From assembly GCA_964057225.1 (NCBI GenBank), contig OZ059898.1, positions 10,974,001 through 11,038,000 of the forward strand: a stretch of DNA of 64,000 nucleotides, written 5' to 3'. The notes beneath the pieces are model-generated. The model made no database searches. It saw only the letters and a program-made list of their open reading frames with translations, and was not told the origin of the DNA. The DNA is from Auanema rhodensis. Taxonomy: Eukaryota; Animalia; Nematoda. A program made the position numbers and the translations under genes. Of the stretch, positions 250-50,089 are shown piece by piece (the first letter of the stretch is position 1; every line of letters begins with the position of its first letter).

Positions 250-254
250 GTACC

Positions 255-340: not shown

Positions 341-483
341 GTCATTCTGATCTAGTGAACTGAGGCGCTGCGGCCAGTTCGCAGTATTATCAGTATTGCT
401 GTGAAAACTGAATCATTTTTCTAATTTCAAACCAGCGCCTTGAATTTTTGGCTCAAAATATAGCTAATAACTGTTGTTATCAT
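341..483 (+). pseudogene. Degenerate tRNA-Leu half-unit ('B' monomer; representative, one per repeat)
   Basis: GTCATTCTGATCTAGTGAACTGAGGCGCTGCGGCCAGTTCGCAGT aligns to tRNA nt 1-45. Variable arm, T-arm (B-box) and 3' acceptor strand are missing. The downstream flank (..TAATTTCAAACCAGCGCCTTAAA..) is homologous to the flank of the intact half. Confidence 0.9.
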
Positions 484-18400: not shown

Positions 18401-21400
18401 GGAAACTGAAGCTCACAACTGTTTTTGCCATGTCATTCTGAACTAGTGAACTGAGGCGCTGCGGCCAGTTCGCAGTATTATCAGTATTGCTTTGAAAACT
18501 GAATCATTTTTCTAATTTCAAACCAGCGCCTTAAATGTTTGGCTCAAAATGAAGCTAATAACTGTAGTTATCATGTCATTCTGGCCGAGTGGTCTAAGGC
18601 GCTGCGTTCAGGTCGCAGTCCTCTCCGGAGGGCGCAGGTTCGAATCCTGCGGATGACAGTATTTTTTTGGAAACCAAATCACTTTTTTAATTTCAAACAA
18701 GCGTCTTATAGTTTCAGCGGAAACTGAAGCTCACAACTGTTTTTGCCATGTCATTCTGATCTAGTGAACTGAGGCGCTGTGCCCGTTTGCAGTATTATCC
18801 GTATTGCTTTGAAAACCGAATCATCTTTCTAATTTCAAACCAGCGCCTTAAATGTTTGGCTCAAAATGAAGCTAATAACTGTTGTTATCATGTCATTCTG
18901 GCCGAGTGGTCTAAGGCGCTGCGTTCAGGTCGCAGTCCTCTCCGGATTGCGCAGGTTCGAATCCTGCGGATGACAGTATCTTTTTGGAAACCAAATCACT
19001 TTTTTAATTTCAAACCAGCGCCTTAAAGTTTTGGCGGAAACTGAAGCTCACAACTGTTTTTGCCATGTCATTCTGATCTAGTGAACTGAGGCGCTGCGCC
19101 CGTTTGCAGTATTATCCGTATTGCTTTGAAAACCGAATCATCTTTCTAATTTCAAACCAGCGCCTTAAATTTTTGGCTCAAAATAAAGCTAATAACTGTA
19201 GTTATCATGTCATTCTGGCCGAGTGGTCTAAGGCGCTGCGTTCAGGTCGCAGTCCTCTCCGGAGGGCGCAGGTTCGAATCCTGCGGATGACAGTATCTTT
19301 TTGGAAACCAATTCACTTTTTTAATTTCAAACAAGCGTCTTATAGTTTCAGCGGAAACTGAAGCTCACAACTGTTTTTGCCATGTCATTCTGATCTAGTG
19401 AACTGAGGCGCTGCGCCCGTTCGCAGTATTATCAGTATTGCTTTGAAAACCGAATCATTTTTCTAATTTCAAACCAGCGCCTTAAATTTTTGGCTCAAAA
19501 TATAGCTAATAACTGTTGTTATCATGTCATTCTGGCCGAGTGGTCTAAGGCGCTGCGTTCAGGTCGCAGTCCTCTCCGGAGGGCGCAGGTTCGAATCCTG
19601 CGGATGACAGTATCTTTTTGGAAACCAAATCACTTTTTTAATTTCAAACCAGCGCCTTAAAGTTTTGGCGGAAACTGAAGCTCACAACTGTGTTTGCCAT
19701 GTCATTCTGATCTAGTGAACTGAGGCGCTGCGGCCAGTTCGCAGTATTATCAGTATTGCTTTGAAAACCGAATCATCTTTCTAATTTCAAACCAGCGCCT
19801 TAAATTTTTGGCTCAAAATAAAGCTAATAACTGTAGTTATCATGTCATTCTGGCCGAGTGGTCTAAGGCGCTGCGTTCAGGTCGCTGTCCTCTCCGGAGG
19901 GCGCAGGTTCGAATCCTGCGGATGACAGTATCTTTTTGGAAACCAAATCACTTTTTTAATTTTAAACAAGCGTCTTAAAGTTTCAGCGGAAACTGAAGCT
20001 CACAACTGTTTTTGCCATGTCATTCTGAACTAGTGAACTGAGGCGCTGCGGCCAGTTCGCAGTATTATCAGTATTGCTTTGAAAACTGAATCATTTTTCT
20101 AATTTCAAACCAGCGCCTTAAATGTTTGGCTCAAAATGAAGCTAATAACTGTAGTTATCATGTCATTCTGGCCGAGTGGTCTAAGGCGCTGCGTTCAGGT
20201 CGCAGTCCTCTCCGGAGGGCGCAGGTTCGAATCCTGCGGATGACAGTATTTTTTTGGAAACCAAATCACTTTTTTAATTTCAAACAAGCGTCTTATAGTT
20301 TCAGCGGAAACTGAAGCTCACAACTGTTTTTGCCATGTCATTCTGATCTAGTGAACTGAGGCGCTGTGCCCGTTTGCAGTATTATCCGTATTGCTTTGAA
20401 AACCGAATCATCTTTCTAATTTCAAACCAGCGCCTTAAATGTTTGGCTCAAAATGAAGCTAATAACTGTTGTTATCATGTCATTCTGGCCGAGTGGTCTA
20501 AGGCGCTGCGTTCAGGTCGCAGTCCTCTCCGGATTGCGCAGGTTCGAATCCTGCGGATGACAGTATCTTTTTGGAAACCAAATCACTTTTTTAATTTCAA
20601 ACCAGCGCCTTAAAGTTTTGGCGGAAACTGAAGCTCACAACTGTGTTTGCCATGTCATTCTGATCTAGTGAACTGAGGCGCTGCGGCCAGTTCGCAGTAT
20701 TATCAGTATTGCTTTGAAAACCGAATCATCTTTCTAATTTCAAACCAGCGCCTTAAATTTTTGGCTCAAAATAAAGCTAATAACTGTAGTTATCATGTCA
20801 TTCTGGCCGAGTGGTCTAAGGCGCTGCGTTCAGGTCGCAGTCCTCTCCGGAGGGCGCAGGTTCGAATCCTGCGAATGACAGTATCTTTTTGGAAACCAAA
20901 TCACTTTTTTAATTTCAAAGCAGCGCCTTAAAGTTTCGGCGGAAAGTGAAGCTCACAACTGTTTTTGACATGTCATTCTGATCTAGTGAACTGAGGCGCT
21001 GCGGCCAGTTCGCAGTATTTTCAGTATTGCTGTGAAAACTGAATCATTTTTCTAATTTCAAACCAGCGCCTTAAATTTTTGGCTCAAAATATAGCTAATA
21101 ACTGTTGTTATTATGTCATTCTGGCCGAGTGGTCTAAGGCGCTGCGTTCAGGTCGCAGTCCTCTCCGGAGGGCGCAGGTTCGAATCCTGCGGATGACAGT
21201 ATCTTTTTGGAAACCAAATCACTTTTTTAATTTCAAACCAGCGCCTTAAAGTTTCAGCGATAACTGAAGCTCACAACTGTTTTTGCCATGTCATTCTGAA
21301 CTAGTGAACTGAGGCGCTGCGCCCGTTCGCAGTATTATCAGTATTGCTTTGAAAACCGAATCATTTTTCTAATTTCAAACCAGCGCCTTAAATTTTTGGC

Positions 21401-24400
21401 TCAAAATATAGCTAATAACTGTTGTTATCATGTCATTCTGGCCGAGTGGTCTAAGGCGCTGCGTTCAGGTCGCAGTCCTCTCCGGAGGGCGCAGGTTCGA
21501 ATCCTGCGGATGACAGTATCTTTTTGGAAACCAAATCACTTTTTTAATTTCAAACCAGCGCCTTAAAGTTTTGGCGGAAACTGAAGCTCACAACTGTGTT
21601 TGCCATGTCATTCTGATCTAGTGAACTGAGGCGCTGCGCCCGTTCGCAGTATTATCAGTATTGCTTTGAAAACCGAATCATTTTTCTAATTTCAAACCAG
21701 CGCCTTAAATTTTTGGCTCAAAATAAAGCTAATAACTGTAGTTATCATGTCATTCTGGCCGAGTGGTCTAAGGCGCTGCGTTCAGGTCGCAGTCCTCTCC
21801 GGAGGGCGCAGGTTCGAATCCTGCGGATGACAGTATCTTTTTGGAAACCAAATCACTTTTTTAATTTCAAACCAGCGCCTAAAAGTTTTGGCGGAAACTG
21901 AAGCTCACAACTGTTTTTGCCATGTCATTCTGAACTAGTGAACTGAGGCGCTGCGCCCGTTCGTAGTATTATCAGTATTGTTTTGAAAACCGAATCATCT
22001 TTCTAATTTCAAACCAGCGCCTTGAATTTTTGGCTCAAAATAAAGCTAATAACTGTTGTTATCATGTCATTCTGGCCGAGTGGTCTAAGGCGCTGCGTTC
22101 AGGTCGCAGTCCTCTCCGGATTGCGCAGGTTCGAATCCTGCGGATGACAGTATCTTTTTGGAAACCAAATCACTTTTTTAATTTCAAACCAGCGCCTTAA
22201 AGTTTTGGCGGAAACTGAAGCTCACAACTGTGTTTGCCATGTCATTCTGATCTAGTGAACTGAGGCGCTGCGGCCAGTTCGCAGTATTATCAGTATTGCT
22301 TTGAAAACCGAATCATCTTTCTAATTTCAAACCAGCGCCTTAAATTTTTGGCTCAAAATAAAGCTAATAACTGTAGTTATCATGTCATTCTGGCCGAGTG
22401 GTCTAAGGCGCTGCGTTCAGGTCGCAGTCCTCTCCGGAGGGCGCAGGTTCGAATCCTGCGGATGACAGTATCTTTTTGGAAACCAAATCACTTTTTTAAT
22501 TTCAAACCAGCGCCTTAAAGTTTCAGCGATAACTGAAGCTCACAACTGTTTTTGCCATGTCATTCTGAACTAGTGAACTGAGGCGCTGCGCCAGTTCGCA
22601 GTATTATCAGTATTGCTTTGAAAACTGAATCATTTTTCTAATTTCAAACCAGCGCCTTAAATGTTTGGCTCAAAATGAAGCTAATAACTGTTGTTATCAT
22701 GTCATTCTGGCCGAGTGGTCTAAGGCGCTGCGTTCAGGTCGCAGTCCTCTCCGGATTGCGCAGGTTCGAATCCTGCGGATGACAGTATCTTTTTGGAAAC
22801 CAAATCACTTTTTTAATTTCAAACCAGCGCCTTAAAGTTTTGGCGGAAACTGAAGCTCACAACTGTGTTTGCCATGTCATTCTGATCTAGTGAACTGAGG
22901 CGCTGCGGCCAGTTCGCAGTATTATCAGTATTGCTTTGAAAACCGAATCATCTTTCTAATTTCAAACCAGCGCCTTAAATTTTTGGCTCAAAATAAAGCT
23001 AATAACTGTAGTTATCATGTCATTCTGGCCGAGTGGTCTAAGGCGCTGCGTTCAGGTCGCAGTCCTCTCCGGAGGGCGCAGGTTCGAATCCTGCGAATGA
23101 CAGTATCTTTTTGGAAACCAAATCACTTTTTTAATTTCAAAGCAGCGCCTTAAAGTTTCGGCGGAAAGTGAAGCTCACAACTGTTTTTGACATGTCATTC
23201 TGATCTAGTGAACTGAGGCGCTGCGGCCAGTTCGCAGTATTTTCAGTATTGCTGTGAAAACTGAATCATTTTTCTAATTTCAAACCAGCGCCTTAAATTT
23301 TTGGCTCAAAATATAGCTAATAACTGTTGTTATTATGTCATTCTGGCCGAGTGGTCTAAGGCGCTGCGTTCAGGTCGCAGTCCTCTCCGGAGGGCGCAGG
23401 TTCGAATCCTGCGGATGACAGTATCTTTTTGGAAACCAATCACTTTTTTAATTTCAAACCAGCGCCTTAAAGTTTCAGCGATAACTGAAGCTCACAACTG
23501 TTTTTGCCATGTCATTCTGAACTAGTGAACTGAGGCGCTGCGCCCGTTCGCAGTATTATCAGTATTGCTTTGAAAACCGAATCATTTTTCTAATTTCAAA
23601 CCAGCGCCTTAAATTTTTGGCTCAAAATATAGCTAATAACTGTTGTTATCATGTCATTCTGGCCGAGTGGTCTAAGGCGCTGCGTTCAGGTCGCAGTCCT
23701 CTCCGGAGGGCGCAGGTTCGAATCCTGCGGATGACAGTATCTTTTTGGAAACCAAATCACTTTTTTAATTTCAAACCAGCGCCTTAAAGTTTTGGCGGAA
23801 ACTGAAGCTCACAACTGTGTTTGCCATGTCATTCTGATCTAGTGAACTGAGGCGCTGCGCCCGTTCGCAGTATTATCAGTATTGCTTTGAAAACCGAATC
23901 ATTTTTCTAATTTCAAACCAGCGCCTTAAATTTTTGGCTCAAAATAAAGCTAATAACTGTAGTTATCATGTCATTCTGGCCGAGTGGTCTAAGGCGCTGC
24001 GTTCAGGTCGCAGTCCTCTCCGGAGGGCGCAGGTTCGAATCCTGCGGATGACAGTATCTTTTTGGAAACCAAATCACTTTTTTAATTTCAAACCAGCGCC
24101 TAAAAGTTTTGGCGGAAACTGAAGCTCACAACTGTTTTTGCCATGTCATTCTGACTAGTGAACTGAGGCGCTGCGCCCGTTCGTAGTATTATCAGTATTG
24201 TTTTGAAAACCGAATCATCTTTCTAATTTCAAACCAGCGCCTTGAATTTTTGGCTCAAAATAAAGCTAATAACTGTTGTTATCATGTCATTCTGGCCGAG
24301 TGGTCTAAGGCGCTGCGTTCAGGTCGAAGTCCTCTCCGGAGGGCGCAGGTTCGAATAATGCGGATGACAGTATCTTTTTGGAAACCAAATCACTTTTTTA

Positions 24401-27400
24401 ATTTCAAACAAGCGTCTTATAGTTTCAGCGGAAACTGAAGCTCACAACTGTTTTTGCCATGTCATTCTGATCTAGTGAACTGAGGCGCTGCGCCCGTTTG
24501 CAGTATTATCCGTATTGCTTTGAAAACCGAATCATCTTTCTAATTTCAAACAAGCGCCTTAAATGTTTGGCTCAAAATGAAGCTAATAACTGTTGTTATC
24601 ATGTCTTTCTGGCCGAGTGGTCTAAGGCGCTGCGTTCAGGTCGCAGTCCTCTCCGGAGGGCGCAGGTTCGAATCCTGCGGATGACAGTATCTTTTTAGAA
24701 ACCAAATCACTTTTTTAATTTCAAACAAGCGCCTTAAAGTTTCAGCGATAACTGAAGCTCACAACTGTTTTTGCCATGTCATTCTGAACTAGTGAACTGA
24801 GGCGCTGCGCCCGTTCGCAGTATTATCAGCATTGCTTTGAAAACCGAATCATTTTTCTAATTTCAAACCAGCGCCTTAAATGTTTGGCTCAAAATAAAGC
24901 TAATAACTGTAGTTATCATGTCATTCTGGCCGAGTGGTCTAAGGCGCTGCGTTCAGGTCGCAGTCCTCTCCGGAGGGCGCAGGTTCGAATCCTGCGGATG
25001 ACAGTATCTTTTTGGAAACCAAATCACTTTTTTAATTTCAAACCAGCGCCTTAAAGTTTTGGCGGAAACTGAAGCTCACAACTGTTTTTGCCATGTCATT
25101 CTGATCTAGTGAACTGAGGCGCTGCGCCCGTTTGCAGTATTATCCGTATTGCTTTGAAAACCGAATCATCTTTCTAATTTCAAACCAGCGCCTTAAATTT
25201 TTGGCTCAAAATAAAGCTAATAACTGTAGTTATCATGTCATTCTGGCCGAGTGGTCTAAGGCGCTGCGTTCAGGTCGCAGTCCTCTCCGGAGGGCGCAGG
25301 TTCGAATCCTGCGAATGACAGTATCTTTTTGGAAACCAAATCACTTTTTTAATTTCAAACCAGCGCCTTAAAGTTTTGGCGGAAACTGAAGCTCACAACT
25401 GTTTTTGCCGTGTCATTCTGAACTAGTGAACTGAGGCGCTGCGGCCAGTTCGCAGTATTATCAGTATTGCTTTGAAAACTGAATCATTTTTCTAATTTCA
25501 AACCAGCGCCTTCAATGTTTGGCTCAAAATAAAGCTAATAACTGTAGTTATCATGTCATTCTGGCCGAGTGGTCTAAGGCGCTGCGTTCAGGTCGCAGTC
25601 CTCTCCGGAGGGCGCAGGTTCGAATCCTGCGAATGACAGTATCTTTTTGGAAACCAAATCACTTTTTTAATTTCAAACCAGCGCCTTAAAGTTTTGGCGG
25701 AAACTGAAGCTCACAACTGTTTTTGCCGTGTCATTCTGAACTAGTGAACTGAGGCGCTGCGGCCAGTTCGCAGTATTATCAGTATTGCTTTGAAAACTGA
25801 ATCATTTTTCTAATTTCAAACCAGCGCCTTCAATGTTTGGCTCAAAATAAAGCTAATAACTGTAGTTATCATGTCATTCTGGCCGAGTGGTCTAAGGCGC
25901 TGCGTTCAGGTCGCAGTCCTCTCCGGAGGGCGCAGGTTCGAATCCTGCGAATGACAGTATCTTTTTGGAAACCAAATCACTTTTTTAATTTCAAACCAGC
26001 GCCTTAAAGTTTTGGCGGAAACTGAAGCTCACAACTGTTTTTGCCATGTCATTCTGAACTAGTGAACTGAGGCGCTGCGCCCGTTCGTAGTATTATCAGT
26101 ATTGTTTTGAAAACCGAATCATCTTTCTAATTTCAAACCAGCGCCTTGAATTTTTGGCTCAAAATAAAGCTAATAACTGTTGTTATCATGTCATTCTGGC
26201 CGAGTGGTCTAAGGCGCTGCGTTCAGGTCGCAGTCCTCTCCGGAGGGCGCAGGTTCGAATCCTGCGGATGACAGTATCTTTTTGGAAACCAAATCACTTT
26301 TTAATTTCAAACCAGCGCCTTAAAGTTTTGGCGGAAACTGAAGCTCACAACTGTTTTTGCCATGTCATTCTGATCTAGTGAACTGAGGCGCTGCGCCCGT
26401 TTGCAGTATTATCCGTATTGCTTTGAAAACCGAATCATCTTTCTAATTTCAAACCAGCGCCTTAAATTTTTGGCTCAAAATAAAGCTAATAACTGTAGTT
26501 ATCATGTCATTCTGGCCGAGTGGTCTAAGGCGCTGCGTTCAGGTCGCAGTCCTCTCCGGAGGGCGCAGGTTCGAATCCTGCGGATGACAGTATCTTTTTG
26601 GAAACCAATTCACTTTTTTAATTTCAAACAAGCGCCTTAAAGTTTCAGCGATAACTGAAGCTCACAACTGTTTTTGCCATGTCATTCTGAACTAGTGAAC
26701 TGAGGCGCTGCGCCCGTTCGCAGTATTATCAGTATTGCTTTGAAAACCGAATCATTTTTCTAATTTCAAACCAGCGCCTTAAATGTTTGGCTCAAAATAA
26801 AGCTAATAACTGTAGTTATCATGTCATTCTGGCCGAGTGGTCTAAGGCGCTGCGTTCAGGTCGCAGTCCTCTCCGGAGGGCGCAGGTTCGAATCCTGCGG
26901 ATGACAGTATCTTTTTGGAAACCAAATCACTTTTTTAATTTTAAACAAGCGTCTTAAAGTTTCAGCGGAAACTGAAGCTCACAACTGTTTTTGCCATGTC
27001 ATTCTGAACTAGTGAACTGAGGCGCTGCGGCCAGTTCGCAGTATTATCAGTATTGCTTTGAAAACTGAATCATTTTTCTAATTTCAAACCAGCGCCTTAA
27101 ATGTTTGGCTCAAAATAAAGCTAATAACTGTAGTTATCATGTCATTCTGGCCGAGTGGTCTAAGGCGCTGCGTTCAGGTCGCAGTCCTCTCCGGAGGGCG
27201 CAGGTTCGAATCCTGCGGATGACAGTATTTTTTTGGAAACCAAATCACTTTTTTAATTTCAAACAAGCGTCTTATAGTTTCAGCGGAAACTGAAGCTCAC
27301 AACTGTTTTTGCCATGTCATTCTGATCTAGTGAACTGAGGCGCTGTGCCCGTTTGCAGTATTATCCGTATTGCTTTGAAAACCGAATCATCTTTCTAATT

Positions 27401-29360
27401 TCAAACCAGCGCCTTAAATGTTTGGCTCAAAATGAAGCTAATAACTGTTGTTATCATGTCATTCTGGCCGAGTGGTCTAAGGCGCTGCGTTCAGGTCGCA
27501 GTCCTCTCCGGAGGGCGCAGGTTCGAATCCTGCGGATGACAGTATCTTTTTGGAAACCAAATCACTTTTTTAATTTCAAACCAGCGCCTTAAAGTTTTGG
27601 CGGAAACTGAAGCTCACAACTGTTTTTGCCATGTCATTCTGATCTAGTGAACTGAGGCGCTGCGCCCGTTTGCAGTATTATCCGTATTGCTTTGAAAACC
27701 GAATCATCTTTCTAATTTCAAACCAGCGCCTTAAATTTTTGGCTCAAAATAAAGCTAATAACTGTAGTTATCATGTCATTCTGGCCGAGTGGTCTAAGGC
27801 GCTGCGTTCAGGTCGCAGTCCTCTCCGGAGGGCGCAGGTTCGAATCCTGCGGATGACAGTATTTTTTTGGAAACCAAATCACTTTTTTAATTTCAAACCA
27901 GCGCCTTAAAGTTTCGGCGGAAACTGAAGCTCACAACTGTTTTTGCCGTGTCATTCTGAACTAGTGAACTGAGGCGCTGCGGCCAGTTCGCAGTATTATC
28001 AGTATTGCTTTGAAAACTGAATCATTTTTCTAATTTCAAACCAGCGCCTTCAATGTTTGGCTCAAAATGAAGCTAATAACTGTTGTTATCATGTCATTCT
28101 GGCCGAGTGGTCTAAGGCGCTGCGTTCAGGTCGCAGTCCTCTCCGGAGGGCGCAGGTTCGAATCCTGCGAATGACAGTATCTTTTTGGAAACCAAATCAC
28201 TTTTTTAATTTCAAACCAGCGCCTTAAAGTTTTGGCGGAAACTGAAGCTCACAACTGTTTTTGCCATGTCATTCTGAACTAGTGAACTGAGGCGCTGCGC
28301 CCGTTCGTAGTATTATCAGTATTGTTTTGAAAACCGAATCATCTTTCTAATTTCAAACCAGCGCCTTGAATTTTTGGCTCAAAATAAAGCTAATAACTGT
28401 TGTTATCATGTCATTCTGGCCGAGTGGTCTAAGGCGCTGCGTTCAGGTCGCAGTCCTCTCCGGAGGGCGCAGGTTCGAATCCTGCGGATGACAGTATCTT
28501 TTTGGAAACCAATTCACTTTTTTAATTTCAAACAAGCGCCTTAAAGTTTCAGCGATAACTGAAGCTCACAACTGTTTTTGCCATGTCATTCTGAACTAGT
28601 GAACTGAGGCGCTGCGCCCGTTCGCAGTATTATCAGTATTGCTTTGAAAACCGAATCATTTTTCTAATTTCAAACCAGCGCCTTAAATGTTTGGCTCAAA
28701 ATAAAGCTAATAACTGTAGTTATCATGTCATTCTGGCCGAGTGGTCTAAGGCGCTGCGTTCAGGTCGCAGTCCTCTCCGGAGGGCGCAGGTTCGAATCCT
28801 GCGGATGACAGTATCTTTTTGGAAACCAAATCACTTTTTTAATTTCAAACCAGCGCCTTAAAGTTTTGGCGGAAACTGAAGCTCACAACTGTTTTTGCCA
28901 TGTCATTCTGATCTAGTGAACTGAGGCGCTGCGCCCGTTTGCAGTATTATCCGTATTGCTTTGAAAACCGAATCATCTTTCTAATTTCAAACCAGCGCCT
29001 TAAATTTTTGGCTCAAAATAAAGCTAATAACTGTAGTTATCATGTCATTCTGGCCGAGTGGTCTAAGGCGCTGCGTTCAGGTCGCAGTCCTCTCCGGAGG
29101 GCGCAGGTTCGAATCCTGCGGATGACAGTATTTTTTTGGAAACCAAATCACTTTTTTAATTTCAAACAAGCGTCTTATAGTTTCAGCGGAAACTGAAGCT
29201 CACAACTGTTTTTGCCATGTCATTCTGATCTAGTGAACTGAGGCGCTGTGCCCGTTTGCAGTATTATCCGTATTGCTTTGAAAACCGAATCATCTTTCTA
29301 ATTTCAAACCAGCGCCTTAAATGTTTGGCTCAAAATGAAGCTAATAACTGTTGTTATCAT

Positions 29361-29444
29361 GTCATTCTGGCCGAGTGGTCTAAGGCGCTGCGTTCAGGTC
29401 GCAGTCCTCTCCGGAGGGCGCAGGTTCGAATCCTGCGGATGACA
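29361..29444 (+). tRNA. tRNA-Leu(CAG), last copy left of the retroelement
   Basis: Consensus 84-nt cloverleaf. Confidence 0.97.
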
Positions 29445-29669
29445 GTATCTTTTTGGAAACCAAATCACTTTTTTAATTTCAAACCAGCGCCTTAAAGTTT
29501 TGGCGGAAACTGAAGCTCACAACTGTTTTTGCCATGTCATTCTGATCTAGTGAACTGAGGCGCTGCGCCCGTTTGCAGTATTATCCGTATTGCTTTGAAA
29601 ACCGAATCATCTTTCTAATTTCAAACCAGCGCCTTAAATTTTTGGCTCAAAATAAAGCTAATAACTGTA

Positions 29670-29674
29670 GTTAT
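29670..29674. repeat. Target-site duplication GTTAT (left copy; right copy at 37430-37434)
   Basis: Empty unit reads CTGTA GTTAT CAT-tRNA. Filled site reads CTGTA GTTAT [element] GTTAT CAT-tRNA. Confidence 0.93.
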
Positions 29675-30090
29675 TTTTGAAGATAGAGGGCTCTTCAAAT
29701 AGCCTCCCAGGTTCACACTTTCTATTCTATGCCCTGTTAACGTAAAATACTATTAGAGGAAGAAAGATTCATTCATATGCCATTCAGATATACATAATAC
29801 AGAATATAAGGACTAGAAGATATATAATAAGACTAGATAAAATACATAGAAGACTAGAGTGAATGTAATAAGACTAGATATACATCACTAATGAGACTAG
29901 AGATAGTCTTACTAAAGGACAAGGATAAAACGGTGGTTCAGACTAGATGAGTCATAAGATAAAGACAGCAACGAGGAGAGAGAAAAGCGACCGTCCGCGA
30001 CGGTGGTATAAAAACAGAGTGCCCGTGAATCTCATCAGCCAACGTGATGAGATTGCATCGATTGAATGATGGATAATCGCATTCGCGATA
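29675..30090 (-). repeat. 3' LTR (416 bp)
   Basis: Reads TTTTGAAG...ATTCGCGATA on +. No difference from 37014-37429 seen by eye. Confidence 0.96.
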
Positions 30091-30100
30091 TTCCGGGCCA
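30091..30100 (-). promoter_or_regulatory. Putative plus-strand primer site (PPT position), TGGCCCGGAA abutting the 3' LTR
   Basis: Called by position. GC-rich ...CCGGAA resembles the atypical PPTs of nematode BEL elements. Confidence 0.55.
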
Positions 30101-30123
30101 GGAGAGAGAAATCAGAACTGATT

Positions 30124-30453
30124 TCATTCTGCTAGTTCCTCCGCAAACTGCAGCTTGCATAATACACCAGGATGATCGTGGTCCAGTCCGCTTCCTTTGC
30201 ACACATGACATATTTTCTTCATCTTCTCCACACACGGTTTTCCAAAGTGGTTCCGCAAACACTTCAAGCACATGTTGATCAACTTGCAACGCTTGACGCG
30301 TTGTGCTGCAGTCTTGTAGACTGTGCATTTTCCCATGGTGTGGCCCTTCTTCCAACAGAGTTGACATTTCATGTCTTCTTCCATTTTTCTGTACTTCACT
30401 TTAGAGTTGTTCTGCTTTTTTGGTGCAGACGTATTCTGACTTTTGTTAGGCAT
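30124..30453 (-). CDS. Basic nucleocapsid-like protein with three BEL-Gag-type zinc knuckles (possibly a spliced terminal exon starting at 30517)
   Basis: CQLCWKKGHTMGKC (CX2CX4HX4C), CLKCLRNHFGKPC, CHVCKGSGLDHDHPGVLC; Lys-rich. The frame stays open upstream through a strong ATTATTTCAG acceptor (AG ends at 30518). Confidence 0.82.
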   Translation of the reverse strand: MPNKSQNTSAPKKQNNSKVKYRKMEEDMKCQLCWKKGHTMGKCTVYKTAAQRVKRCKLINMCLKCLRNHFGKPCVEKMKKICHVCKGSGLDHDHPGVLCKLQFAEELAE

Positions 30454-30680
30454 CTTTGAGTTGCCGTTATCCTGGAGTTGATCAAGGGAATCGCTCCATT
30501 CTTTGATGTTATCAAGACTGAAATAATGATGGTTTTTATACGTAGTATACCTCCCCGCGGCAAAATGATAAATTGTGTAGGACTGGTGTAAATCAAATTG
30601 AACAATCGTTTGCTATGATAGGGAACTAAGAAATCGAGAAAATAAATCGAGGACTCACTGGGTATTGAACCCGTCATCAA

Positions 30681-33600
30681 TCACTGAGAGTGCGTACCCT
30701 TAGCCACTGCGCTATGACTGGCTCGAACTACAATCTTGAACAACAAATGAATTGTGAAAAAAATGATGCGAAAAGGAATTGCGCAGATAATAAGTATTTG
30801 TATGGGTAAATATGCTAGGAGAGCGGGTGTACTTGACAACTGGAAGACGCGGTCAATTACGGCGGTTACAAAGCCGAGTACTGTGATCAAAACACTCAAT
30901 AGTATTACAATCGTTTTAAGGTAGTCCGAGTAAAACGAAACAAGTGAGCTGATTAAGTGAGTGGGTACAAAAAAGCTCGGTATGGTAAACTCGACGTTCA
31001 GGAGACTGAATGAACTGTTTGTAATCTGATGAGTGGACTGTTCAAAACCTATGTATTCGTTCACGTAGTACAAGTTGCCTTTGAGATGTAATGTGGCGGA
31101 AGTACACGGATGAGTACACGTTATAGACGGTGTTGAAAAATTGCTCTGTATGGGAATAGAGTTGTTGTAACCCTGAGAATTGCATGTAAGCAGAAATTCT
31201 TCATCGTCGCACGAAATTCGAATGTGGGATGATGTACTGATGCAAGTAATGATTGTTGTTGCTCCAGTAACACAGTCAAAACATCCAACTAGGTCTTTGG
31301 ATTTTAGTTCGCAAATAGTAGGACTATTGTCGTATTCATAAGTGACATCTGAGATATTTGTCCACATTTTAATGTCAACAGCGCTTATGGGATGAGCAAA
31401 AATGAGATTGTTTTTTGGGATCATGGTCAGAGATGGAAGAGATAATGGTAGGGTGTAGTTATTAGTATAGAGCATGTTAGGATTGCTGTCCTGACAATAG
31501 CAATTTTCGACTGTTTCGGCTGGTCTGCATGAACATGTGTCTGTTACAGTACATTCGGAGAATGGGTCAGCGGTTTTAACTTTTCCGCACGAGTATGAAA
31601 ATGTAGCAGAGTGAGGTAAAACTGCAATTCTCGAGTTGGAAGTAATGAATCGTCTATGGAGGATTTCATTATCAGAATATGTTATTCTCCCAAGAGTAAT
31701 ATGGTACCCGTTAATGATTTTTGTAGAGTGTGGTAAAAAGGGGACGTGCGAGATCGTTTCAGTTTTGTTCTCAATAGCTGTATGGATGCTAATCTGGAGA
31801 AAAACCCTAGGTGTCCATCGTGAGCAGTAGAAAACTTCGTGGGTGATATTGTCATTGGGAACATGAAAGTTGCGATAGAAGAGACAACCAGAAGTTGGCA
31901 ACGCACAACCGCATGATAGAAATCCACAGCTTTCTGAACAATAGCTGGTACCTGGATATTGGTTGGCTAATGAGAGTTCTGAGATTGATGTATTGGGTCG
32001 AACGTTCGCACAAAACGATCCTACACAAGAGCCCATATGGGGACACCGTTTTGCGGATTCAGTTTTTACGATGGTGTGACGTGTAAAAAATAAGGATACT
32101 TTCGTGCACAGTATACGTGTATACATAAGTTTGATGCGCAGGTGTGAGTTCGTGAGGGGATTGGCGTATGATCGGTTTGAATGTGAAGTTGTGAAACATA
32201 CCTCATTATCGTAAGTATGGAGGGTGGTGGAGCTGCTGACTTGGTTGACTTGGTGGGTAGGTGATAAGTTCGAGACGGAGTTGCCTGGAACATGTGATAT
32301 ACTCGGAGGAACAATAGTACATGCATTAACTACAAGAGATTCAATCAAAAAAATGACGATTATTGCAACCAAAAGATACCCGACTCGGTGAACTAATCGG
32401 TCACGTTGTCGTGATCGTTGTGAGGGTGTAGACTTCTGCCATCGAGGTAGCTTGTGAGAACTGAGCGGGACGTACTCGAGTACCGATCGTTCTTCCTGAA
32501 TAGAGATATGAGATCTTATATGAGATGGGAGACATTGAGTGATCATACGCCAAACGGAAAAAAGGGTGTATTGTGCAATATGAACAAATTTTTTAGAACA
32601 AATTCGGATGACTATGATGCTTAAAAGAATGCTAAATAGAATGAGCCATATGATGAGTGCGGTCGCCGAGAGTGCTGCGTATGGGAAACAAGATGGGTTG
32701 TGGAGTAGTTCAAGACAGAACAGACATTGAATCATATCGCAAAACGGAGTTGCTGGACAATCCAGTTGATGCAATGCAAATGTGTCATTTTTATCGATAA
32801 TATGTCGTGAGATGAATGTGTGGTCATGCAATACAACATGAGCCGGAAATACTATGGTGAAGTTGGGAGTATTTGGGTTGTACTCTACACATGTTTCTCG
32901 GGCACAAACTCGGATGGGATGTCCAGTACCGCAGTTTGATATGCCTACTCCTCCTTTGATGCAAGAGAACTGGCAGATGTTGGTTGCGGACATTGTATTG
33001 ACGAGAATACCCAGTATCATGGCTATGAAAAAATGTGTGTAACTGGGGAGACGTTGTCGTTTTCGAGGTTGTGGTTCATTTTCACCTTCATCATCTGCAA
33101 TGGTGATCACTTCGATGTCATCATCATCGTTGATAGTGATAACGTTTGGGTCTATCACGTTTTCAGTTGTATTGGGTCCGGTCGATGTGCTGGTTTCCAC
33201 AACGGTGGATACTTCGTTATCGAGTAAAATGACCTCTGGAGTTTCTTTAAACGTGACAGTTTTGTCTGATTTGTGTGGGGACTGCGTATGACTGTTTTCC
33301 GTATGATGCTCGTTGTCGGAAGGAATTTCAAGGGGAATCAGGCGATTGATGGGTCTAATTAGTTTGTGTCCATCAGATGTACGGACTTCTGCAACTCTCA
33401 CAGATTCCGTGTTCTGTATGCTTGTTATTAAACCCATTTTCCACTGGTTTCGTTTCGTATTGTCATCTGACATTAGCACTACTGTGCCTACTTTTGGTGT
33501 AGCTGTGGAGAAATGTCCTTGCTTGTGATCCAACATGTGTGTTGCTCGAAGGGCGACGACATATTCATTATGCCATCGTTGCCAAATTTTGTCAAGTGTT

Positions 33601-34223
33601 TTCTGAATGTTGTTTAAATGTTTTTGTATTCCAGAAAAGAAACTCATCTCTAAATTTTTTCTGGAGTATTTCATTCTGTTCATGTCATTTTGCAATGTTG
33701 TTGAGTCATGTACTGTAGAGTCAAATGAACTCTGATAGTCATCGAGTTCATCTCGGCGAAGTTGGATAAGTTGAGTATATTCCTCAACTTCGCCTGTGTT
33801 CACAATGAGATCTCTCTCATCACAATAGTCCAAAATGCCCTTGATCAGTTTTGCAACTGTGGGCGGATGTTCTTCGCCAATGTCTTTGGTGACAAGTTGG
33901 TCGATTTCATGAGCTTTCATGGTCTTATGGGCTTGAGGGTGTTTGGCCAACATCCTTTTATAGCTACCTTGGTATAATTCCAACCAAGTTGCTGGGTAGT
34001 CCACATGGGTGCGTTCCTCGAGCACCACTCGATGTTCGTCTAACTGATCTCGTAGTGATCGGAAGACGTCCCCAACCGGGATGGCTTTATAATATATACG
34101 CATCAAGCTAGGCTTGTGCGTATGTATGAACTCTCGACATCTGTCAATGTCATCAACCGGGGGGAAGATGAATGCTTGATGGTACGGGAGGATGTCCTCC
34201 TTCACCGTGTTGAACAACTTCAA
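30681..34223 (-). CDS. env: Retroelement polyprotein: Gag-N-like helical region, BEL integrase C-terminal domain (DUF5641-like), linker, short Gn-like glycoprotein and phlebovirus-like class II fusion glycoprotein Gc
   Basis: aa ~212-300: IWQRWHNEYVVALR..PKVGTVVLM..RNQWKMGLI..VRVAEVRT..RPINRLIPLEI. Signal FFIAMILGILVNTMSA. Gn motif CPATPFCDMIQCLFCLELLHNPSC plus TM. Second signal ..LIESLVVNA|C at aa ~635. Gc motifs KRCPHMGSC and YPGTSYCSESCGFLSCGCALPTSGCLFYR. C-terminal TMs. 1180 codons without a stop; true start uncertain (see findings). Confidence 0.93.
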   Translation of the reverse strand: MKLFNTVKEDILPYHQAFIFPPVDDIDRCREFIHTHKPSLMRIYYKAIPVGDVFRSLRDQLDEHRVVLEERTHVDYPATWLELYQGSYKRMLAKHPQAHKTMKAHEIDQLVTKDIGEEHPPTVAKLIKGILDYCDERDLIVNTGEVEEYTQLIQLRRDELDDYQSSFDSTVHDSTTLQNDMNRMKYSRKNLEMSFFSGIQKHLNNIQKTLDKIWQRWHNEYVVALRATHMLDHKQGHFSTATPKVGTVVLMSDDNTKRNQWKMGLITSIQNTESVRVAEVRTSDGHKLIRPINRLIPLEIPSDNEHHTENSHTQSPHKSDKTVTFKETPEVILLDNEVSTVVETSTSTGPNTTENVIDPNVITINDDDDIEVITIADDEGENEPQPRKRQRLPSYTHFFIAMILGILVNTMSATNICQFSCIKGGVGISNCGTGHPIRVCARETCVEYNPNTPNFTIVFPAHVVLHDHTFISRHIIDKNDTFALHQLDCPATPFCDMIQCLFCLELLHNPSCFPYAALSATALIIWLILFSILLSIIVIRICSKKFVHIAQYTLFSVWRMITQCLPSHIRSHISIQEERSVLEYVPLSSHKLPRWQKSTPSQRSRQRDRLVHRVGYLLVAIIVIFLIESLVVNACTIVPPSISHVPGNSVSNLSPTHQVNQVSSSTTLHTYDNEVCFTTSHSNRSYANPLTNSHLRIKLMYTRILCTKVSLFFTRHTIVKTESAKRCPHMGSCVGSFCANVRPNTSISELSLANQYPGTSYCSESCGFLSCGCALPTSGCLFYRNFHVPNDNITHEVFYCSRWTPRVFLQISIHTAIENKTETISHVPFLPHSTKIINGYHITLGRITYSDNEILHRRFITSNSRIAVLPHSATFSYSCGKVKTADPFSECTVTDTCSCRPAETVENCYCQDSNPNMLYTNNYTLPLSLPSLTMIPKNNLIFAHPISAVDIKMWTNISDVTYEYDNSPTICELKSKDLVGCFDCVTGATTIITCISTSSHIRISCDDEEFLLTCNSQGYNNSIPIQSNFSTPSITCTHPCTSATLHLKGNLYYVNEYIGFEQSTHQITNSSFSLLNVEFTIPSFFVPTHLISSLVSFYSDYLKTIVILLSVLITVLGFVTAVIDRVFQLSSTPALLAYLPIQILIICAIPFRIIFFTIHLLFKIVVRASHSAVAKGTHSQ

Positions 34224-37001
34224 CGCGTGAGTTATATTTCTTTTTAAACAACTTAACTGTCTTGCTAAGGCAGTCAGGTTACGAGTTACGAGTTTCCGAT
34301 GGAGAAGAGGGACTCATAATCATTTTGTTTGAAGAGAAATATTATTGTTCAAGTTAATTTTGTGTTTAATCTAGCTAATTTGTGGATTGATTATTAAAAT
34401 CAATTGAATTAAAGTCCGAATATAATAGCTGTCGATAGAAGGAATAACAATATATAATATAAATAGGAATATAAATAAACAAGTAATATAAGCAAATAAG
34501 ATAAGCAAATAGTTCACTATTAGAAGGTACAATGAATATTTAGTTGAATATTTGTTAACAGTTTTTTCTTTGGAGAGTTATACTGTTAGTTTTTTCGTGT
34601 AGTTGTTACTGTTTCGTTAAATTACTTGTGTGGAATCTTTTGTAAAAAAATGTATGTTTTATCTTTTGAATATATTTTTTTTTTTTTTTGTTAGCTAAGT
34701 TAGTATATTTTTAATTTTTTTTTTTTTTTTTTTTAAAATGGAGATTGTTCAGGCAAAGATAATTCAATAAGTATCTTTCTCTGGTTAAAAAAGAAAAATT
34801 GGATGATTCACTAGATGAGAGAACAATTCAAGTTGAGAGATTACTGTAGGAAATAGAGAGAAAAAATTGAGTTTCCCAAAATCGATCAAAAAATGTGAGC
34901 AAACTAGCTTGGATGAATTCAGTAAAGTTTTCTGAGTAATTTGATACTAAATATGCTGTTGTTTTTTATCAAAAAATATAATATCAATATTAATATTAAT
35001 TGGTTGAAATATAATAAGGATATCCAAAAAATATTCAAAATATTATTGTTTGATTGATCAGAAAGTATGTGTATGAAAAGGATGAGTGATTTGAGACAAA
35101 AGATTTATTTCTGGACAGATGAACAAAGGAAATTGTATAAGATAACAGATGTGAATGAAATATAAACAATATAAAATGTGAAATAATAAAATTAAAATAA
35201 AACAAATTGAAATTATAAAATAACTTACCAACTTAATGTAAATGTATAATTGATACCAGAGAGTATCAATTCAAATTCAATAAGCGGTTAAAGTGTTAAT
35301 GCGAACAAATGAAAACTAACTTGATTCTCCTTGAGGATCCTTGATGTCGATTGTCCTTGTCTGGTGAATAGGTTAGCAGATGGCGTCGGGTGCTGTGGCT
35401 GGTTGTAGCGGCGGAATGAATGACCTGTCTGGCAGCTAGGCCGTGTGGGATGTTAAGAGGGAGGAGCTAATCTGCAAAAAGTATATGTAAGATTATTAAA
35501 TGAGATTATTTAATGCGTTTGAAACAAAACGAGTGGGTTAACTTCTCATAACATTTTAAAATGTTTTGATATTCCATGTCATTCGATGATGACCTAGATA
35601 ATGTGTGAGAGATGTTTGCGTGGTGCTAATGGCGCCGCACCAGGTCAATGAACAGATGGCAACATCTTTTGTCTTTTTTCGCGTATCTTGTCAACATATT
35701 TGCTAAAATCGACTTTTTGGTGCAAAATGTTGGAAATATCTCTTAACCTTTGCTGAGATTTATATTTTATGCTTTAACATGCGTAGGATGATAATTCGTA
35801 GCTCTTTCGTGTCTTATCATTATCTCATCTATGTAGGATGGGATATTATGATGTTTTGTGATTTTTCACAGAAATTTTCATCTGCGTAGGATTTTAACAA
35901 TATAGTTAATGTATTTTGTCCTATAGAACGTGGGTGATGATCTTATATAAGATAAAATATATAAATTTTATGAATTTCATGATTTGGACTCTGACCTTTC
36001 TCATTGACCCGTTGGTCGTTACATATGACTCATATGGTTGGAAACAATAGATTTACAGACAATGGATGAATAAAGAAATTTAAAAACTATAAAACAAGCC
36101 GTAAATAGTAAAAACTCGGAACTCTTTCGCATTTTTATATAAACAACACCTACCGAGAGTGCAAGGGTACCAAACAAACATCAACAAGTAGGTCAACAGA
36201 CGTTCCTTGTTGATAGGCTCCTTCCACACATGTTCACAAATAATCGTTGATCTCTAAGATACTGACTCCTTTACAGATGAGGAAACAGACAGCATTACTC
36301 ATATAGCAAGGAGACATTGGTCTAAGATGCCTTTTAGTCACCTATTCAATTGATTCACAATTGTTAAAATAACTTTTGCACTCGAAGTCTATCAAAACTG
36401 TTTGCAATGATTATTGAAAGTTACGTAAAATATAAAAGATATAAAAAGGTCTCAAAATCAAAGAATAAATGAATAAATAGCGTTTTTAGACGGTAGCTTT
36501 GCTAATGCGTAATTCATATCATTGTTTCTCACTGTCCTCAGTCAGTAAAAATAAGATCGCCATAAAATGTGTTTGTTGGTACTTTGTCTGCATTTTTCTC
36601 GTACTCTCGCATATTCTTCCTAGGAAAATACTGTGAAACATAATAAGGGGTGATCAATCCCAGCTGAGTCACTGCCGGCAAGTTAAAGGAAGTAGCCATT
36701 GGGTAATCCAATAGAGTTTATATAGCGAACAACCCACTATGTTACTTTCTGTAATCATGTGGTACAAAAATATGGTATCAACCAAAATTTTAAATAATGT
36801 TTAATTATCACTGATATCTAGACAATATTTAACAACCAATTATGTCATACTGACATACGATTCCTTTAGAGTATTTAGATCAGTGAACTTATACTGTAAA
36901 GGACATCCAACGAGTCACTATTAACGAGCAGACTGGCTTGAAGAAAAAAAAAGAAAAAAGATAAAGTAGCGCAATAGAAAGGTCATAGAGTAGAAAGTGA
37001 T

Positions 37002-37013
37002 GCCGATGCACCA
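37002..37013 (-). promoter_or_regulatory. Primer-binding site TGGTGCATCGGC, complementary to the 3' end of tRNA-Gly(GCC)
   Basis: Begins TGG directly after the 5' LTR. The + strand reads GCCGATGCA-CCA, matching the invertebrate tRNA-Gly(GCC) acceptor end (GCATCGG.../...CCGATGCA-CCA). Confidence 0.85.
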
Positions 37014-37429
37014 TTTTGAAGATAGAGGGCTCTTCAAATAGCCTCCCAGGTTCACACTTTCTATTCTATGCCCTGTTAACGTAAAATACTATTAGAGGAA
37101 GAAAGATTCATTCATATGCCATTCAGATATACATAATACAGAATATAAGGACTAGAAGATATATAATAAGACTAGATAAAATACATAGAAGACTAGAGTG
37201 AATGTAATAAGACTAGATATACATCACTAATGAGACTAGAGATAGTCTTACTAAAGGACAAGGATAAAACGGTGGTTCAGACTAGATGAGTCATAAGATA
37301 AAGACAGCAACGAGGAGAGAGAAAAGCGACCGTCCGCGACGGTGGTATAAAAACAGAGTGCCCGTGAATCTCATCAGCCAACGTGATGAGATTGCATCGA
37401 TTGAATGATGGATAATCGCATTCGCGATA
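37014..37429 (-). repeat. 5' LTR (416 bp)
   Basis: Direct repeat of 29675-30090; adjacent to the PBS. Confidence 0.96.
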
Positions 37430-47422: not shown

Positions 47423-47506
47423 GTCATTCTGGCCGAGTGGTCTAAGGCGCTGCGTTCAGGTCGCAGTCCTCTCCGGAGGGCGCAGGTTCGAATCCTGCGG
47501 ATGACA
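47423..47506 (+). tRNA. tRNA-Leu(CAG), terminal copy of the array
   Basis: Consensus 84-nt cloverleaf. Confidence 0.97.
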
Positions 47507-47665
47507 GTATCTTTTTGGAAACCAAATCACTTTTTTAATTTCAAACCAGCGCCTTAAAGTTTCAGCGATAACTGAAGCTCACAACTGTTTTTGCCATGTC
47601 ATTCTGATCTAGTGAACTGAGGCGGTGCGGCAGTGATGTTGAATGAAATTTTCTTTTCTACTTAC

Positions 47666-50089
47666 TTGATTATGTAGCTCATGAATCCAAGCATGACCAA
47701 TGCTACTATTGAACTGATGACTATCACAATAATCTCTGTTATTCCCAAACCACCTAGAAGAAAAGACGTTTATTCTGAAGCTACTTTGTTTCCGTGCCTT
47801 TGTCTTGGCAATATTCGTTATCAAATCCACAGTGAGGTACAGAAACCGGAAAATGCTGAACAAAAGAGTCAGTGCCAGACAAATCGAATTCAGTAGTCTA
47901 AGCATTAGCAATTATTGAACACATACCGGTGTTCACTCACATATGACCCATTGCTCAATGGAGTTATTCTTCCAGCTAATATATGTAGTTCTGAAAAACT
48001 ACTCCCGTATGTACTGGCCCGAGGTCCATATATCAAAATTTCTTTCTGTGCAATGCCGGCGCTATCGAAAAATGTGCCAAATCCACTCACAGCTTTAAAT
48101 GTAAACAATTCCCTATTGAAAGTATTGTGTTATTTACTATTGAATGTTTTACTGCGCATCGTATCAACTAGTTCCTGCGCTGTTAAGTCATTCTCTTGCA
48201 GGAGTGTTTCACCAAGTAATTTACCCGTATCATAGGCTGATATCCATCTATCGTATCGTGTGTTCGAGGACTGTAATTGTTAGTTAAGGGTTTTTTTTAA
48301 ACGTATTAAAATATTAGCTGATGTCCAATCGAATTTCGATAACTCTTTGTCGTTTCTTCCACAAAATGGGGGGCAAAGTTCTTTTTTAAAACTATTTGCA
48401 ACTCGGTTAGCCAAGTCAATAAACTGTTTATTTTCTAAACCAGAGATATACTGCTGAATTTGTTCATTACTTCAAACCTGACACAGCTGGCCAATAAGGG
48501 GCATATACAAAATGAACAACATTACGAACTAACCAGCTTAAATGACTTGCTGATAAAGCAACTCTCTCTCCTGAAGTTATAATGTATTGAATGCAAAAAA
48601 TATTTTCTAAACTTCTTGTTGTTAACCATCGTTTATCCATTCGATCTTGAAAATCAAAATGATTTACATTGATGATAAGATATCGTTTTGTTTCCAATAA
48701 TCCCAGTCTATCTAAAGCATATGCCAATGATAACCCATCATACTGTCCAAAACAGATATAAACTGGAAAATATTTAAATTATCAACATAGTTAATATTTG
48801 TTTGTGAATGTTCGCTTCAAATAATTACTTTTAACAAAAATATTTCGTAATTTTTTAATGAAGACAAGAAATTGATTCTTTTTGTCTGGTGAAATTTCGA
48901 TTTTGCTACTAGCCACAAGAATAGAAAGTTATGTTATTATTTTTTAAGATTTTGCAAATATCACTTTTGAAAAATCTTAAAAATCAAAAAATTTATTACA
49001 AATATTCAAAAAATGCTAGAATGAGCTTAAAGATCTTTTTTGAAAAAACGTAGCTTCAACATCATATTTTGAATTATATGACGGGATATACTTACTTCTT
49101 GTTTTCAGATATGTACTCAAGACATAATGAAGAATATTTTCAAATGGAAAATATTTGGAAAAGTAAGCATAAGTCCCTTCCTCATAATCAGCAACCTCAA
49201 ATACAATAATACATTATAATATTATAATATTATAATATTATTAATCACGTGTATATTATAAGAAGCCATAGCATCAAGAAGTAATGATGGATACATATCA
49301 TATGTTTTATCATACATATTAACTACGGCAACGTTTGTACAATTTTTTTCTTTCAGAAAATAAGCTAAGGCTCTGTAAAGCATTCTGAAATATGAATATA
49401 TATCATTTATTATTCGGTTTATTTTTATTTTTCATGTTATACCCTAAAGTTCGATCAAAATGTATTGTACCACGTAATGGAATAACAGTCTCTCCAATGG
49501 GATGATCACAGTCCTTAAAAAATCATAGATTCATTTAATATTGATAGCAATGATTAGTATAATCTCACATTTATAATCGCAGCTTTGCCATACGTTGCAG
49601 CAAGAGTTGCAGCTGCTCGACAATCTTCTGCATATCCTACAAGACTAAGATATGGATCAGTAGTATTCTCATCAAGTAACAGTCTTAGAGTTGTTCTAAA
49701 TAAATATTTCATTTTAAAGTTATAATGAGGTTTCTACTTAAAATACTTTGTTGTGCGTCCTTCATCAGCTGGAACTGATACACCCATCTCTACAGCTGTT
49801 ATATTTCGCACATAATTATATGGATCAAGAAATACGAACGATAAATTTTTCTCAGGAACTTTCAGATTTTTAGGAATTCCAGCATCAATCAAACCTCAAA
49901 TGCATAATTATATTGAGCATGAAATAAAGATAAACCTTCATAAAAACATTGAGCTCTGTAAGCCTCTTCAGGACAAGCATCACCACCGTATTGGCAAAGA
50001 TATCGGCCAACAAATCCGATTTTTGTTGATACTGATATGCTTATTAAGTAGCAACTTATATAACTTAAGTAGAATAGACAACCCAGCAT
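47666..50089 (-). CDS. Receptor-type guanylyl cyclase-like gene (gcy family), 5' part only: signal peptide, ANF-receptor-type ectodomain and TM exon; multi-exon
   Basis: Phase-consistent exons 50089-49936, 49894-49747, 49695-49569, 49513-49443, 49384-49249 and more downstream. Peptides: MLGCLFYLSYISCYLISISVSTKIGFVG, ALAYFLKEKNCTNVAVV, LKTRIYICFG, SAYDTGKLLGETL..LVDTMRSKTFN, the juxtamembrane hallmark PVSVPHCGFDNEYC, and TM exon 47753-47666 (GLGITEIIVIVISSIVALVMLGFMSYII) followed by a GTAAGT donor. Confidence 0.8.

What the first reader, a model, noticed from the sequence alone, without database searches (positions are those of the whole stretch)
47598..47797. A >=47-kb tRNA array (with its provirus) starts ~30 nt inside an intron of a receptor guanylyl cyclase-like gene
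Seen: the TM exon (47753-47666, -) ends at a perfect AA|GTAAGT donor at 47665, and array sequence takes over at ~47634 and continues to the window edge. Known: receptor GCs continue after the TM with kinase-homology and cyclase exons; this gene's other introns are tens to a few hundred nt. Inference: either a giant intron packed with ~125 antisense Pol III genes (head-on Pol II/Pol III traffic; the provirus is sense to gcy and offers TTTCAG acceptors and LTR polyA signals), or the array severed the gene, leaving a cyclase-less membrane-anchored receptor, or there is an assembly join.
Basis: partly seen in the sequence, partly recalled or inferred. Interest (0 to 1): 0.8.

Follow-up and report, generated by a model that had tools for sequence, protein, structure and literature searches.

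The report
tRNA array filling a receptor intron
In a roundworm genome, at least 125 back-to-back leucine tRNA genes begin 31 bases after a splice site of a likely sensory-receptor gene; they likely grew inside that intron, but whether the gene still splices across them or has been cut short is untested.

Summary
The anatomy is real. A 12-exon, stop-free model (signal peptide, ectodomain, CGF..C motif, one TM; about 535 aa) ends at AA|GTAAGT (47665). A 317-bp tRNA-Leu(CAG) array on the opposite strand starts 31 nt later and runs to the window edge: 125 genes plus a 7.8-kb, RT-less Bel/Pao-type element with identical LTRs. Short-read contigs from two studies bridge the gene/array junction without a mismatch, so a join exactly there is unlikely. 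tRNA bodies are 4-5 times less variable than spacers, which suggests selection. The receptor-cyclase label rests mainly on the juxtamembrane motif and TM; the ectodomain alone does not beat shuffles. No kinase or cyclase exon lies in the window, and neither the far end of the array nor any spliced read could be seen. Best reading (about 0.5): an ordinary intron-nested tRNA expanded in place into an intron of at least 47.6 kb, with the remaining exons beyond. Whether it is still spliced is open. The likelier splicing trap is a CTTCAG acceptor in 115 units, not the provirus. No earlier scan note covers this locus.

The parts
47666..50089 (-). 12-exon gene model, signal peptide + ectodomain + CGF..C juxtamembrane motif + TM, 519-535 aa by model, no stop; divergent receptor-guanylyl-cyclase-like 5' half
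   Evidence: Exon chain and phases. Whole model 19.0 bits against an HMM of 23 rGC ectodomain+TM regions; best of 500 shuffles 5.4, best of 1000 shuffles 8.5. Ectodomain alone not significant.
47798..47897 (-). Exon 11 with PHCGFDNEYC juxtamembrane motif; needs a GC donor at 47797 to keep the motif
   Evidence: Top window peptide against the ectodomain HMM, E 0.014 among 2894 peptides; donor options; the all-GT model loses the signal, -0.2 bits.
47666..47753 (-). Transmembrane exon (phase 1 in, phase 2 out)
47660..47665 (-). Splice donor GTAAGT; if unspliced it reads AAG TAA, i.e. Lys-stop right after the TM
47635..47665 (-). 31-nt unique intron stub before the array; no AATAAA
37430..47634 (+). 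Gene-proximal array segment, 32 tRNA-Leu(CAG) genes; ends in the 5' half of the decayed monomer
   Evidence: junction bridged by unitigs.
47423..47506 (+). Last intact tRNA-Leu(CAG), followed by a T5 terminator
   Evidence: Rfam RF00005 53.9 bits, no non-standard pair flagged; terminator.
47572..47580 (-). First of 115 GAGCTTCAG cryptic acceptors in the array units; phase-2 use would add tails such as NYR* or NFRQNFKALV*
   Evidence: predicted only.
29675..37429 (-). Internally deleted Bel/Pao-type LTR element: identical 416-bp LTRs (29675-30090, 37014-37429), 5-bp target duplication GTTAT, primer site TGGTGCATCGG, inserted 3 nt upstream of a tRNA gene
30681..34313 (-). 1210-aa ORF of the element: DUF5641 + Phlebovirus G2 envelope
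   Evidence: Pfam PF18701 E 1.1e-14, PF07245 E 3.1e-64.
1..29674 (+). Distal array segment, 93 tRNA-Leu(CAG) genes, open at the window edge

Best explanation
A tandem array of at least 125 antisense tRNA-Leu(CAG) genes begins 31 nt inside the intron that follows the transmembrane exon of a divergent, likely receptor-guanylyl-cyclase-type gene; it likely grew in place from an intron-nested tRNA gene, so the remaining exons would lie beyond the far end of the array. Shown: the unit is a dimer of one intact 174-bp monomer and one decayed 143-bp monomer, units are reshuffled and homogenised up to the edge, and an LTR element landed in it recently. Inferred: duplication of the nested tRNA, decay of one copy, then amplification of the dimer by unequal exchange. 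Pol II would have to cross at least 47.6 kb against Pol III genes and skip 115 CTTCAG acceptors. I put correct splicing at about half of this reading; the other half is a gene that now gives a truncated ectodomain-TM product or none.
For: Junction bridged with 0 differences in two studies. Frame open over 535 codons, against 36 and 48 stops in the other two frames. The break falls in an intron although two thirds of the gene span (1607 of 2424 nt) is exon, and it leaves the donor intact. Three Trichinella rGC records read ALFVF-S and one reads ALFVF-R before diverging, which fits a split AG|n codon and so a phase-2 splice point at the same residue (indirect). Reference rGCs continue after the TM into kinase and cyclase parts (PMC8045692). 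43-44% of C. elegans tRNA genes are intron-nested and only 56% of those are sense (PMC3342880, PMC4999229). tRNA diversity is 0.009 against 0.044 in spacers and pseudo-half; common variant sites 2 of 83 against 32 of 234, p 0.003. Repeat-filled giant introns are transcribed and spliced in Drosophila (PMC6508613, PMC11207136).
Against: No kinase or cyclase exon in the window, and the far side was not seen. The ectodomain alone scores 2.2 bits against a shuffle maximum of 5.6. hhalign gives 21.6 against a shuffle mean of 16.3 and maximum 26.1 of 60, and a held-out GCY-22 ectodomain scores 131.5 bits where this model scores 5.1. Exon-level searches found no relative. Splice sites are weak: one or two GC donors, and 4 of 11 acceptors have G or A at -3. 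The edge is sharp, the last unit scoring 203 of 212 against inner units, which also fits a recent rearrangement. Nested tRNAs in C. elegans are mostly single.
Confidence: 0.5

Rival explanations
1. The gene is naturally a cyclase-less ectodomain-TM receptor (NPR-C-like or a decoy subunit). It ends at AAG TAA right after the TM or splices to a short tail, possibly an acceptor inside the array, and the array merely abuts it.
For: Read-through gives Lys-stop at once. The ectodomain is far more divergent than an ordinary gcy, 5.1 against 131.5 bits. Array acceptors would give short basic tails.
Against: A perfect donor at an inferred family splice point. Any phase-2 AA|GTAAGT reads as Lys-stop by construction. 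No AATAAA in the 31-nt stub and no AATAAA or AATGAA in the array on this strand.
Confidence: 0.2
2. A rearrangement at the unstable tRNA array severed the gene; the 3' half is lost or elsewhere and the 5' half is a young pseudogene.
For: Sharp edge inside a unit. Weak splice sites. tRNA clusters are described as unstable regions (PMC2888827 passages).
Against: No stop or frameshift is needed in 519-535 codons. The break spares the exons and the donor. The junction letters are the same in the two bridging runs, one of them under another organism label.
Confidence: 0.18
3. Assembly error further in: the gene is truly flanked by a short stretch of array sequence, but the assembler joined it to a large array from elsewhere or inflated the array.
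For: The bridging unitigs carry only 39 array letters and both runs may be the source DNA; the X9 and X10 contigs (study P3) stop at 47684 and 47673 without crossing. No long read was laid.
Against: The junction itself is reproduced in two studies. The array has 72 distinct units among 122, an irregular 461-bp unit 2.4 kb in and a unique element 10.2 kb in, which long reads could anchor on.
Confidence: 0.1
4. The array is germline-limited DNA removed by programmed DNA elimination with a cut near the junction, as for tRNA arrays in Auanema rhodense.
For: A. rhodense eliminates tandem tRNA arrays (bioRxiv 10.64898/2026.08.27.747507 passages), and elimination is widespread in rhabditines.
Against: The unitigs run unbranched through the junction at single-copy depth, and the shown loose ends there are array or adapter sequence, not telomere repeat (5 and 76 loose-end rows not shown). 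No telomere repeat in the window.
Confidence: 0.02

Closest known systems
Intron-nested tRNA genes of Caenorhabditis (PMC4999229 passages; PMC3342880 passages and section 9)
   Same: [quoted passage not shown]
   Different: There mostly one gene per intron (264 genes in 229 arrangements); here at least 125 in one tandem array of at least 40 kb.
Satellite-filled giant introns of Drosophila Y fertility genes kl-3, kl-5 (PMC6508613 part 1 of 2; PMC11207136 abstract)
   Same: Small exons separated by an intron made of tandem repeats and mobile elements.
   Different: Here the repeat is an intact, apparently selected Pol III gene, the size is tens of kb, the host is a likely sensory receptor, and splicing is unproven.
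Tandem tRNA arrays: Auanema rhodense (passages); Entamoeba, human 1q23.3, Arabidopsis chromosome 1 (search listing and abstract starts only)
   Same: Head-to-tail tRNA units kept alike.
   Different: [quoted passage not shown]
Nematode receptor guanylyl cyclases (gcy family; PMC8045692 passages) and the cyclase-less vertebrate NPR-C (recalled, no call)
   Same: Signal peptide, about 480-aa ectodomain, CGF..C motif, single TM, basic residue after it.
   Different: Kinase-homology and cyclase parts not seen; ectodomain similarity is below significance on its own.
Belpaoviridae with phlebovirus-like envelope (PMC8742986 whole text; Atlas virus, PMC9094657 listing only)
   Same: LTRs, 5-bp target duplication, tRNA-Gly-type primer site (assignment recalled), DUF5641, G2-like envelope.
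   Different: No RT, RNase H or integrase-core frame; LTR ends read TA...AA rather than the usual TG...CA (recalled).

Membership tests
Receptor guanylyl cyclase (gcy) | N-terminal signal peptide and one transmembrane helix | tested here: met
   Hydropathy peaks above 1.6 only for windows starting at residues 1-2 and 506-517.
Receptor guanylyl cyclase (gcy) | ANF-receptor-type ectodomain | tested here: inconclusive
   219 collinear columns at 14% identity, but scores within the shuffle range; no Pfam ANF_receptor hit on single exons; single-exon fold uninformative.
Receptor guanylyl cyclase (gcy) | Juxtamembrane P..CGF..C motif before the TM | tested here: met
   15.2 bits for residues 490-533; whole model 19.0 against best shuffle 8.5 of 1000.
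Receptor guanylyl cyclase (gcy) | Kinase-homology domain and cyclase domain after the TM | not testable with these tools
   Absent from the window (best E 5.5; control locus L023 down to 2e-37); DNA beyond the array not held.
Intron-nested tRNA genes | Intact tRNA gene with Pol III boxes and terminator | tested here: met
   85 of 125 copies identical; TTTTT follows in 123 of 125.
Intron-nested tRNA genes | Host exons on both sides, joined in the mRNA | not testable with these tools
   Only the upstream exon and donor are visible; no spliced read.
Repeat-expanded giant intron | Intron orders of magnitude longer than the gene's other introns, made of tandem repeats | tested here: inconclusive
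   At least 47.6 kb against 43-333 nt if it is an intron; acceptor end unseen.
Belpaoviridae | LTRs, target duplication, primer-binding site | tested here: met
Belpaoviridae | Protease, RT, RNase H and integrase domains | tested here: not met
   No Pfam hit for them in the three ORFs scanned; no motif and no other ORF over 162 aa between the LTRs. It is a deletion derivative that works like one, not a full member.

The most novel reading that the evidence does not exclude
A sensory receptor gene is still spliced across an intron of 50 kb or more that is built from over 125 selected, antisense tRNA-Leu genes and a fresh LTR element. The host gene's transcription would then gate a whole tRNA array in a few neurons (the intronic-tRNA model of PMC4999229 scaled a hundredfold), and the acceptor repeated in every unit would switch the product between a full cyclase and a cyclase-less decoy receptor.
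Probability: 0.22. Interest if true: 0.75.

Novelty: new variant of a known kind. Interest (0 to 1): 0.45.

Why it matters
Nematode introns are usually tens of bases, and nested tRNAs are usually single. If the gene continues beyond the array, this is a compact natural test of how Pol II and the spliceosome cross a long run of head-on Pol III genes with over a hundred decoy acceptors, and of whether a host promoter controls a whole tRNA array. If the gene is cut, it is a case of a tRNA array breaking a chemoreceptor gene, which is less surprising. In either case such genes will be annotated as fragments.

Tried and rejected
No whole genome held, so the far end of the array could not be read. 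No RNA holder listed for 47640-50300. In the two guessed-RNA runs laid (X12, X14; one study) contigs cover the neighbouring TSC-22 gene and none was laid on the receptor gene; this blank is not used as evidence. Exon-level searches gave no relative: Pfam, homolog search with 61 candidates and none passing, 50% representatives with 2 unrelated repeat-type hits (for one of them), ESM Atlas below its recognition level, metagenome contigs with 427 pattern matches and none confirmed, PDB sequences. Single-exon AlphaFold model had pLDDT 47 and its fold search gave nothing. A search with a neighbour-gene frame to place the organism found nothing, so the species is not identified; 'nematode' rests on intron size, TTTCAG acceptors, the element type and notes on the same genome. 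Summed contig depth over single-copy depth gave 175 (X6), 50 (X9) and at least 108 (X1, shown rows) against 125 copies in the window; the tool warns this is no copy number, so I take it only as a hint that the array may not be very much longer than the window shows. Fetched metagenome rGC loci had no usable TM exon for a direct intron-position test. Supplements of PMC4999229: 3 small text files, no gcy host; the host-gene table may not be among them, and bioRxiv supplements are closed. Paper searches listed no report of a tandem tRNA array inside an intron; the library lacks most subscription journals. Scan notes by place, sequence and words gave nothing on this locus.

Full report
Observation. 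On the minus strand a chain of 12 exons from 50089 to 47666 stays in frame with no stop (535 codons). Ten introns are 43-58 nt and one is 333 nt. The last exon encodes a single strongly hydrophobic segment and ends at AA|GTAAGT, phase 2, at 47665. Alignment to inner units puts the first array base at 47634, 31 nt into the intron. ARAGORN lists 125 tRNA-Leu(CAG) genes, all on +, from 165 to 47507, interrupted once by an LTR element at 29675-37429.

Is the junction real? Fourteen runs were listed, 11 holding the gene region, from 3 studies. I laid 8 of them, 6 DNA and 2 guessed RNA. In the rows shown, 2 of the 6 DNA runs bridge the junction with one unitig and 0 differences: X6 (study P2, 47595-50400) and X1 (study P1, 47595-52748). 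X9 and X10 contigs stop at 47684 and 47673, X11 has no cover there, and the table for X8 was cut. Both bridging runs are flagged as possible sources of the window, and only 39 array letters lie beyond the junction. So the adjacency is real, while the length of array behind it rests on the assembly.

What is the gene? Single exons find nothing in any library. I fetched rGC references through a cyclase exon of a metagenome locus, picked 34 of the 120 listed proteins, and built an HMM from the 23 with a clear TM. The spliced model scores 19.0 bits, against 5.4 for the best of 500 shuffles and 8.5 for the best of 1000. Most of this comes from PHCGFDNEYC plus the TM (15.2 bits). Without that end the ectodomain scores 2.2 bits, inside the shuffle range. 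hhalign gives a long collinear match of 219 columns at 14% identity, but its score of 21.6 is below the best of 60 shuffles, 26.1. A held-out C. brenneri GCY-22 ectodomain scores 131.5 bits where the model scores 5.1. The gene is thus rGC-like in layout and juxtamembrane motif but far more divergent than an ordinary gcy. Its splice sites are weak: intron 11 needs a GC donor to keep the motif, intron 8 needs a GC donor or a weak acceptor, and 4 of 11 acceptors have G or A at -3. No kinase or cyclase exon exists in any frame of the window (control positive).

Is the donor a true intron start? Any phase-2 AA|GTAAGT also reads Lys-stop, so a natural end is formally possible. Against it: GTAAGT is rare here (3 in 16.4 kb of minus strand), and four Trichinella rGC records share ALFVF and then diverge with S (3 of 4) or R (1 of 4), as expected from a split AG|n codon at the first residue after the TM. 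That points to a family splice point of the same place and phase. It is indirect and rests on gene annotations.

The array. The unit is 174 bp with an intact tRNA (Rfam 53.9 bits; TTTTT follows in 123 of 125 copies) plus 143 bp holding a decayed copy that lacks the variable and T arms. Among the 122 regular units (2 irregular spacings and the last, partial unit left out) 72 are distinct and mean pairwise difference is 11.7 of 318 columns. Identical units recur on both sides of the element, which shows ongoing reshuffling. Diversity is 0.009 in the tRNA and 0.044 in both spacers and the pseudo-half. Sites variable in at least 6 units are 2 of 83 against 32 of 234 (p 0.003); counting any variant, 19 of 83 against 70 of 234 is not significant (p 0.26). 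Units are not independent, so these p values are indicative. Selection on the tRNA, or conversion with other Leu(CAG) genes, would explain it. The last unit is as good as inner units until its final 12 bases.

The element. LTRs are 416 bp and identical, the target duplication is GTTAT, and the insertion is 3 nt upstream of a tRNA gene. Its long ORF has DUF5641 and a Phlebovirus G2 domain; no polymerase frame was found. It is a young, deleted Bel/Pao-type element (family features in PMC8742986). It adds little as a splicing trap: one TTTCAG, one interior AATAAA, and one AATGAA per LTR. The units themselves carry CTTCAG 115 times, and phase-2 use would end the protein after 3-10 residues. The array has no AATAAA or AATGAA on this strand.

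Mechanism. Shown: anatomy, junction, dimer history, lower tRNA diversity, recent insertion. Inferred: a tRNA-Leu gene nested antisense in the post-TM intron, a common arrangement in nematodes (PMC4999229, PMC3342880), duplicated, one copy decayed, and the pair was amplified. This predicts downstream exons beyond the array (0.5). Whether they are still reached is open; Drosophila Y genes show that repeat-filled giant introns can be spliced. Rivals are a natural cyclase-less receptor (0.2), a severed young pseudogene (0.18), a deeper misassembly (0.1) and programmed elimination (0.02).

Novelty. Each ingredient is known: nested tRNAs, tRNA arrays (also in the nematode Auanema), repeat-filled introns. 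Their union in one intron was not listed in ten paper searches, with the limits of that library. The striking part, splicing across the array, is untested. I rate it a new variant of a known kind, interest 0.45; 0.75 if the spliced full-length product is shown.

Noticed in passing
window 29670-37438: The LTR element is inserted 3 nt upstream of a tRNA start, the position Ty3 prefers (recalled); chance of landing within 10 nt of a tRNA start in a 317-bp unit is about 3%. One event only.
   Followed up: partly
window 29675-30090 and 37014-37429: Both LTRs end TA...AA instead of the usual TG...CA, yet are identical and flanked by a clean 5-bp duplication, so the element moved recently with these ends despite lacking a polymerase frame.
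   Followed up: partly
window 30035-30612 (-): After the envelope ORF lie a second purine-tract-like stretch near 30550 and a short Cys/His-rich frame with zinc-knuckle-like spacing; no Pfam hit.
   Followed up: partly
window 51084-54197 (-): Upstream neighbour is a TSC-22/dip/bun gene (Pfam E 1.4e-13); contigs of two guessed-RNA runs join its exons across 73-nt and 1477-nt introns and end about 1 kb before the receptor ATG.
   Followed up: yes
window 44736-45197: One irregular 461-bp spacing holds an extra 143-bp hybrid monomer (intact tRNA 5' part fused to the decayed 3' part), a trace of out-of-register exchange between the two monomers.
   Followed up: partly
each array unit: A CAGCGCCTTA stretch in each spacer is the reverse complement of the tRNA's D-arm/anticodon-stem sequence, so transcripts of the unit can fold back (folds one unit; no shuffle control).
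   Followed up: no
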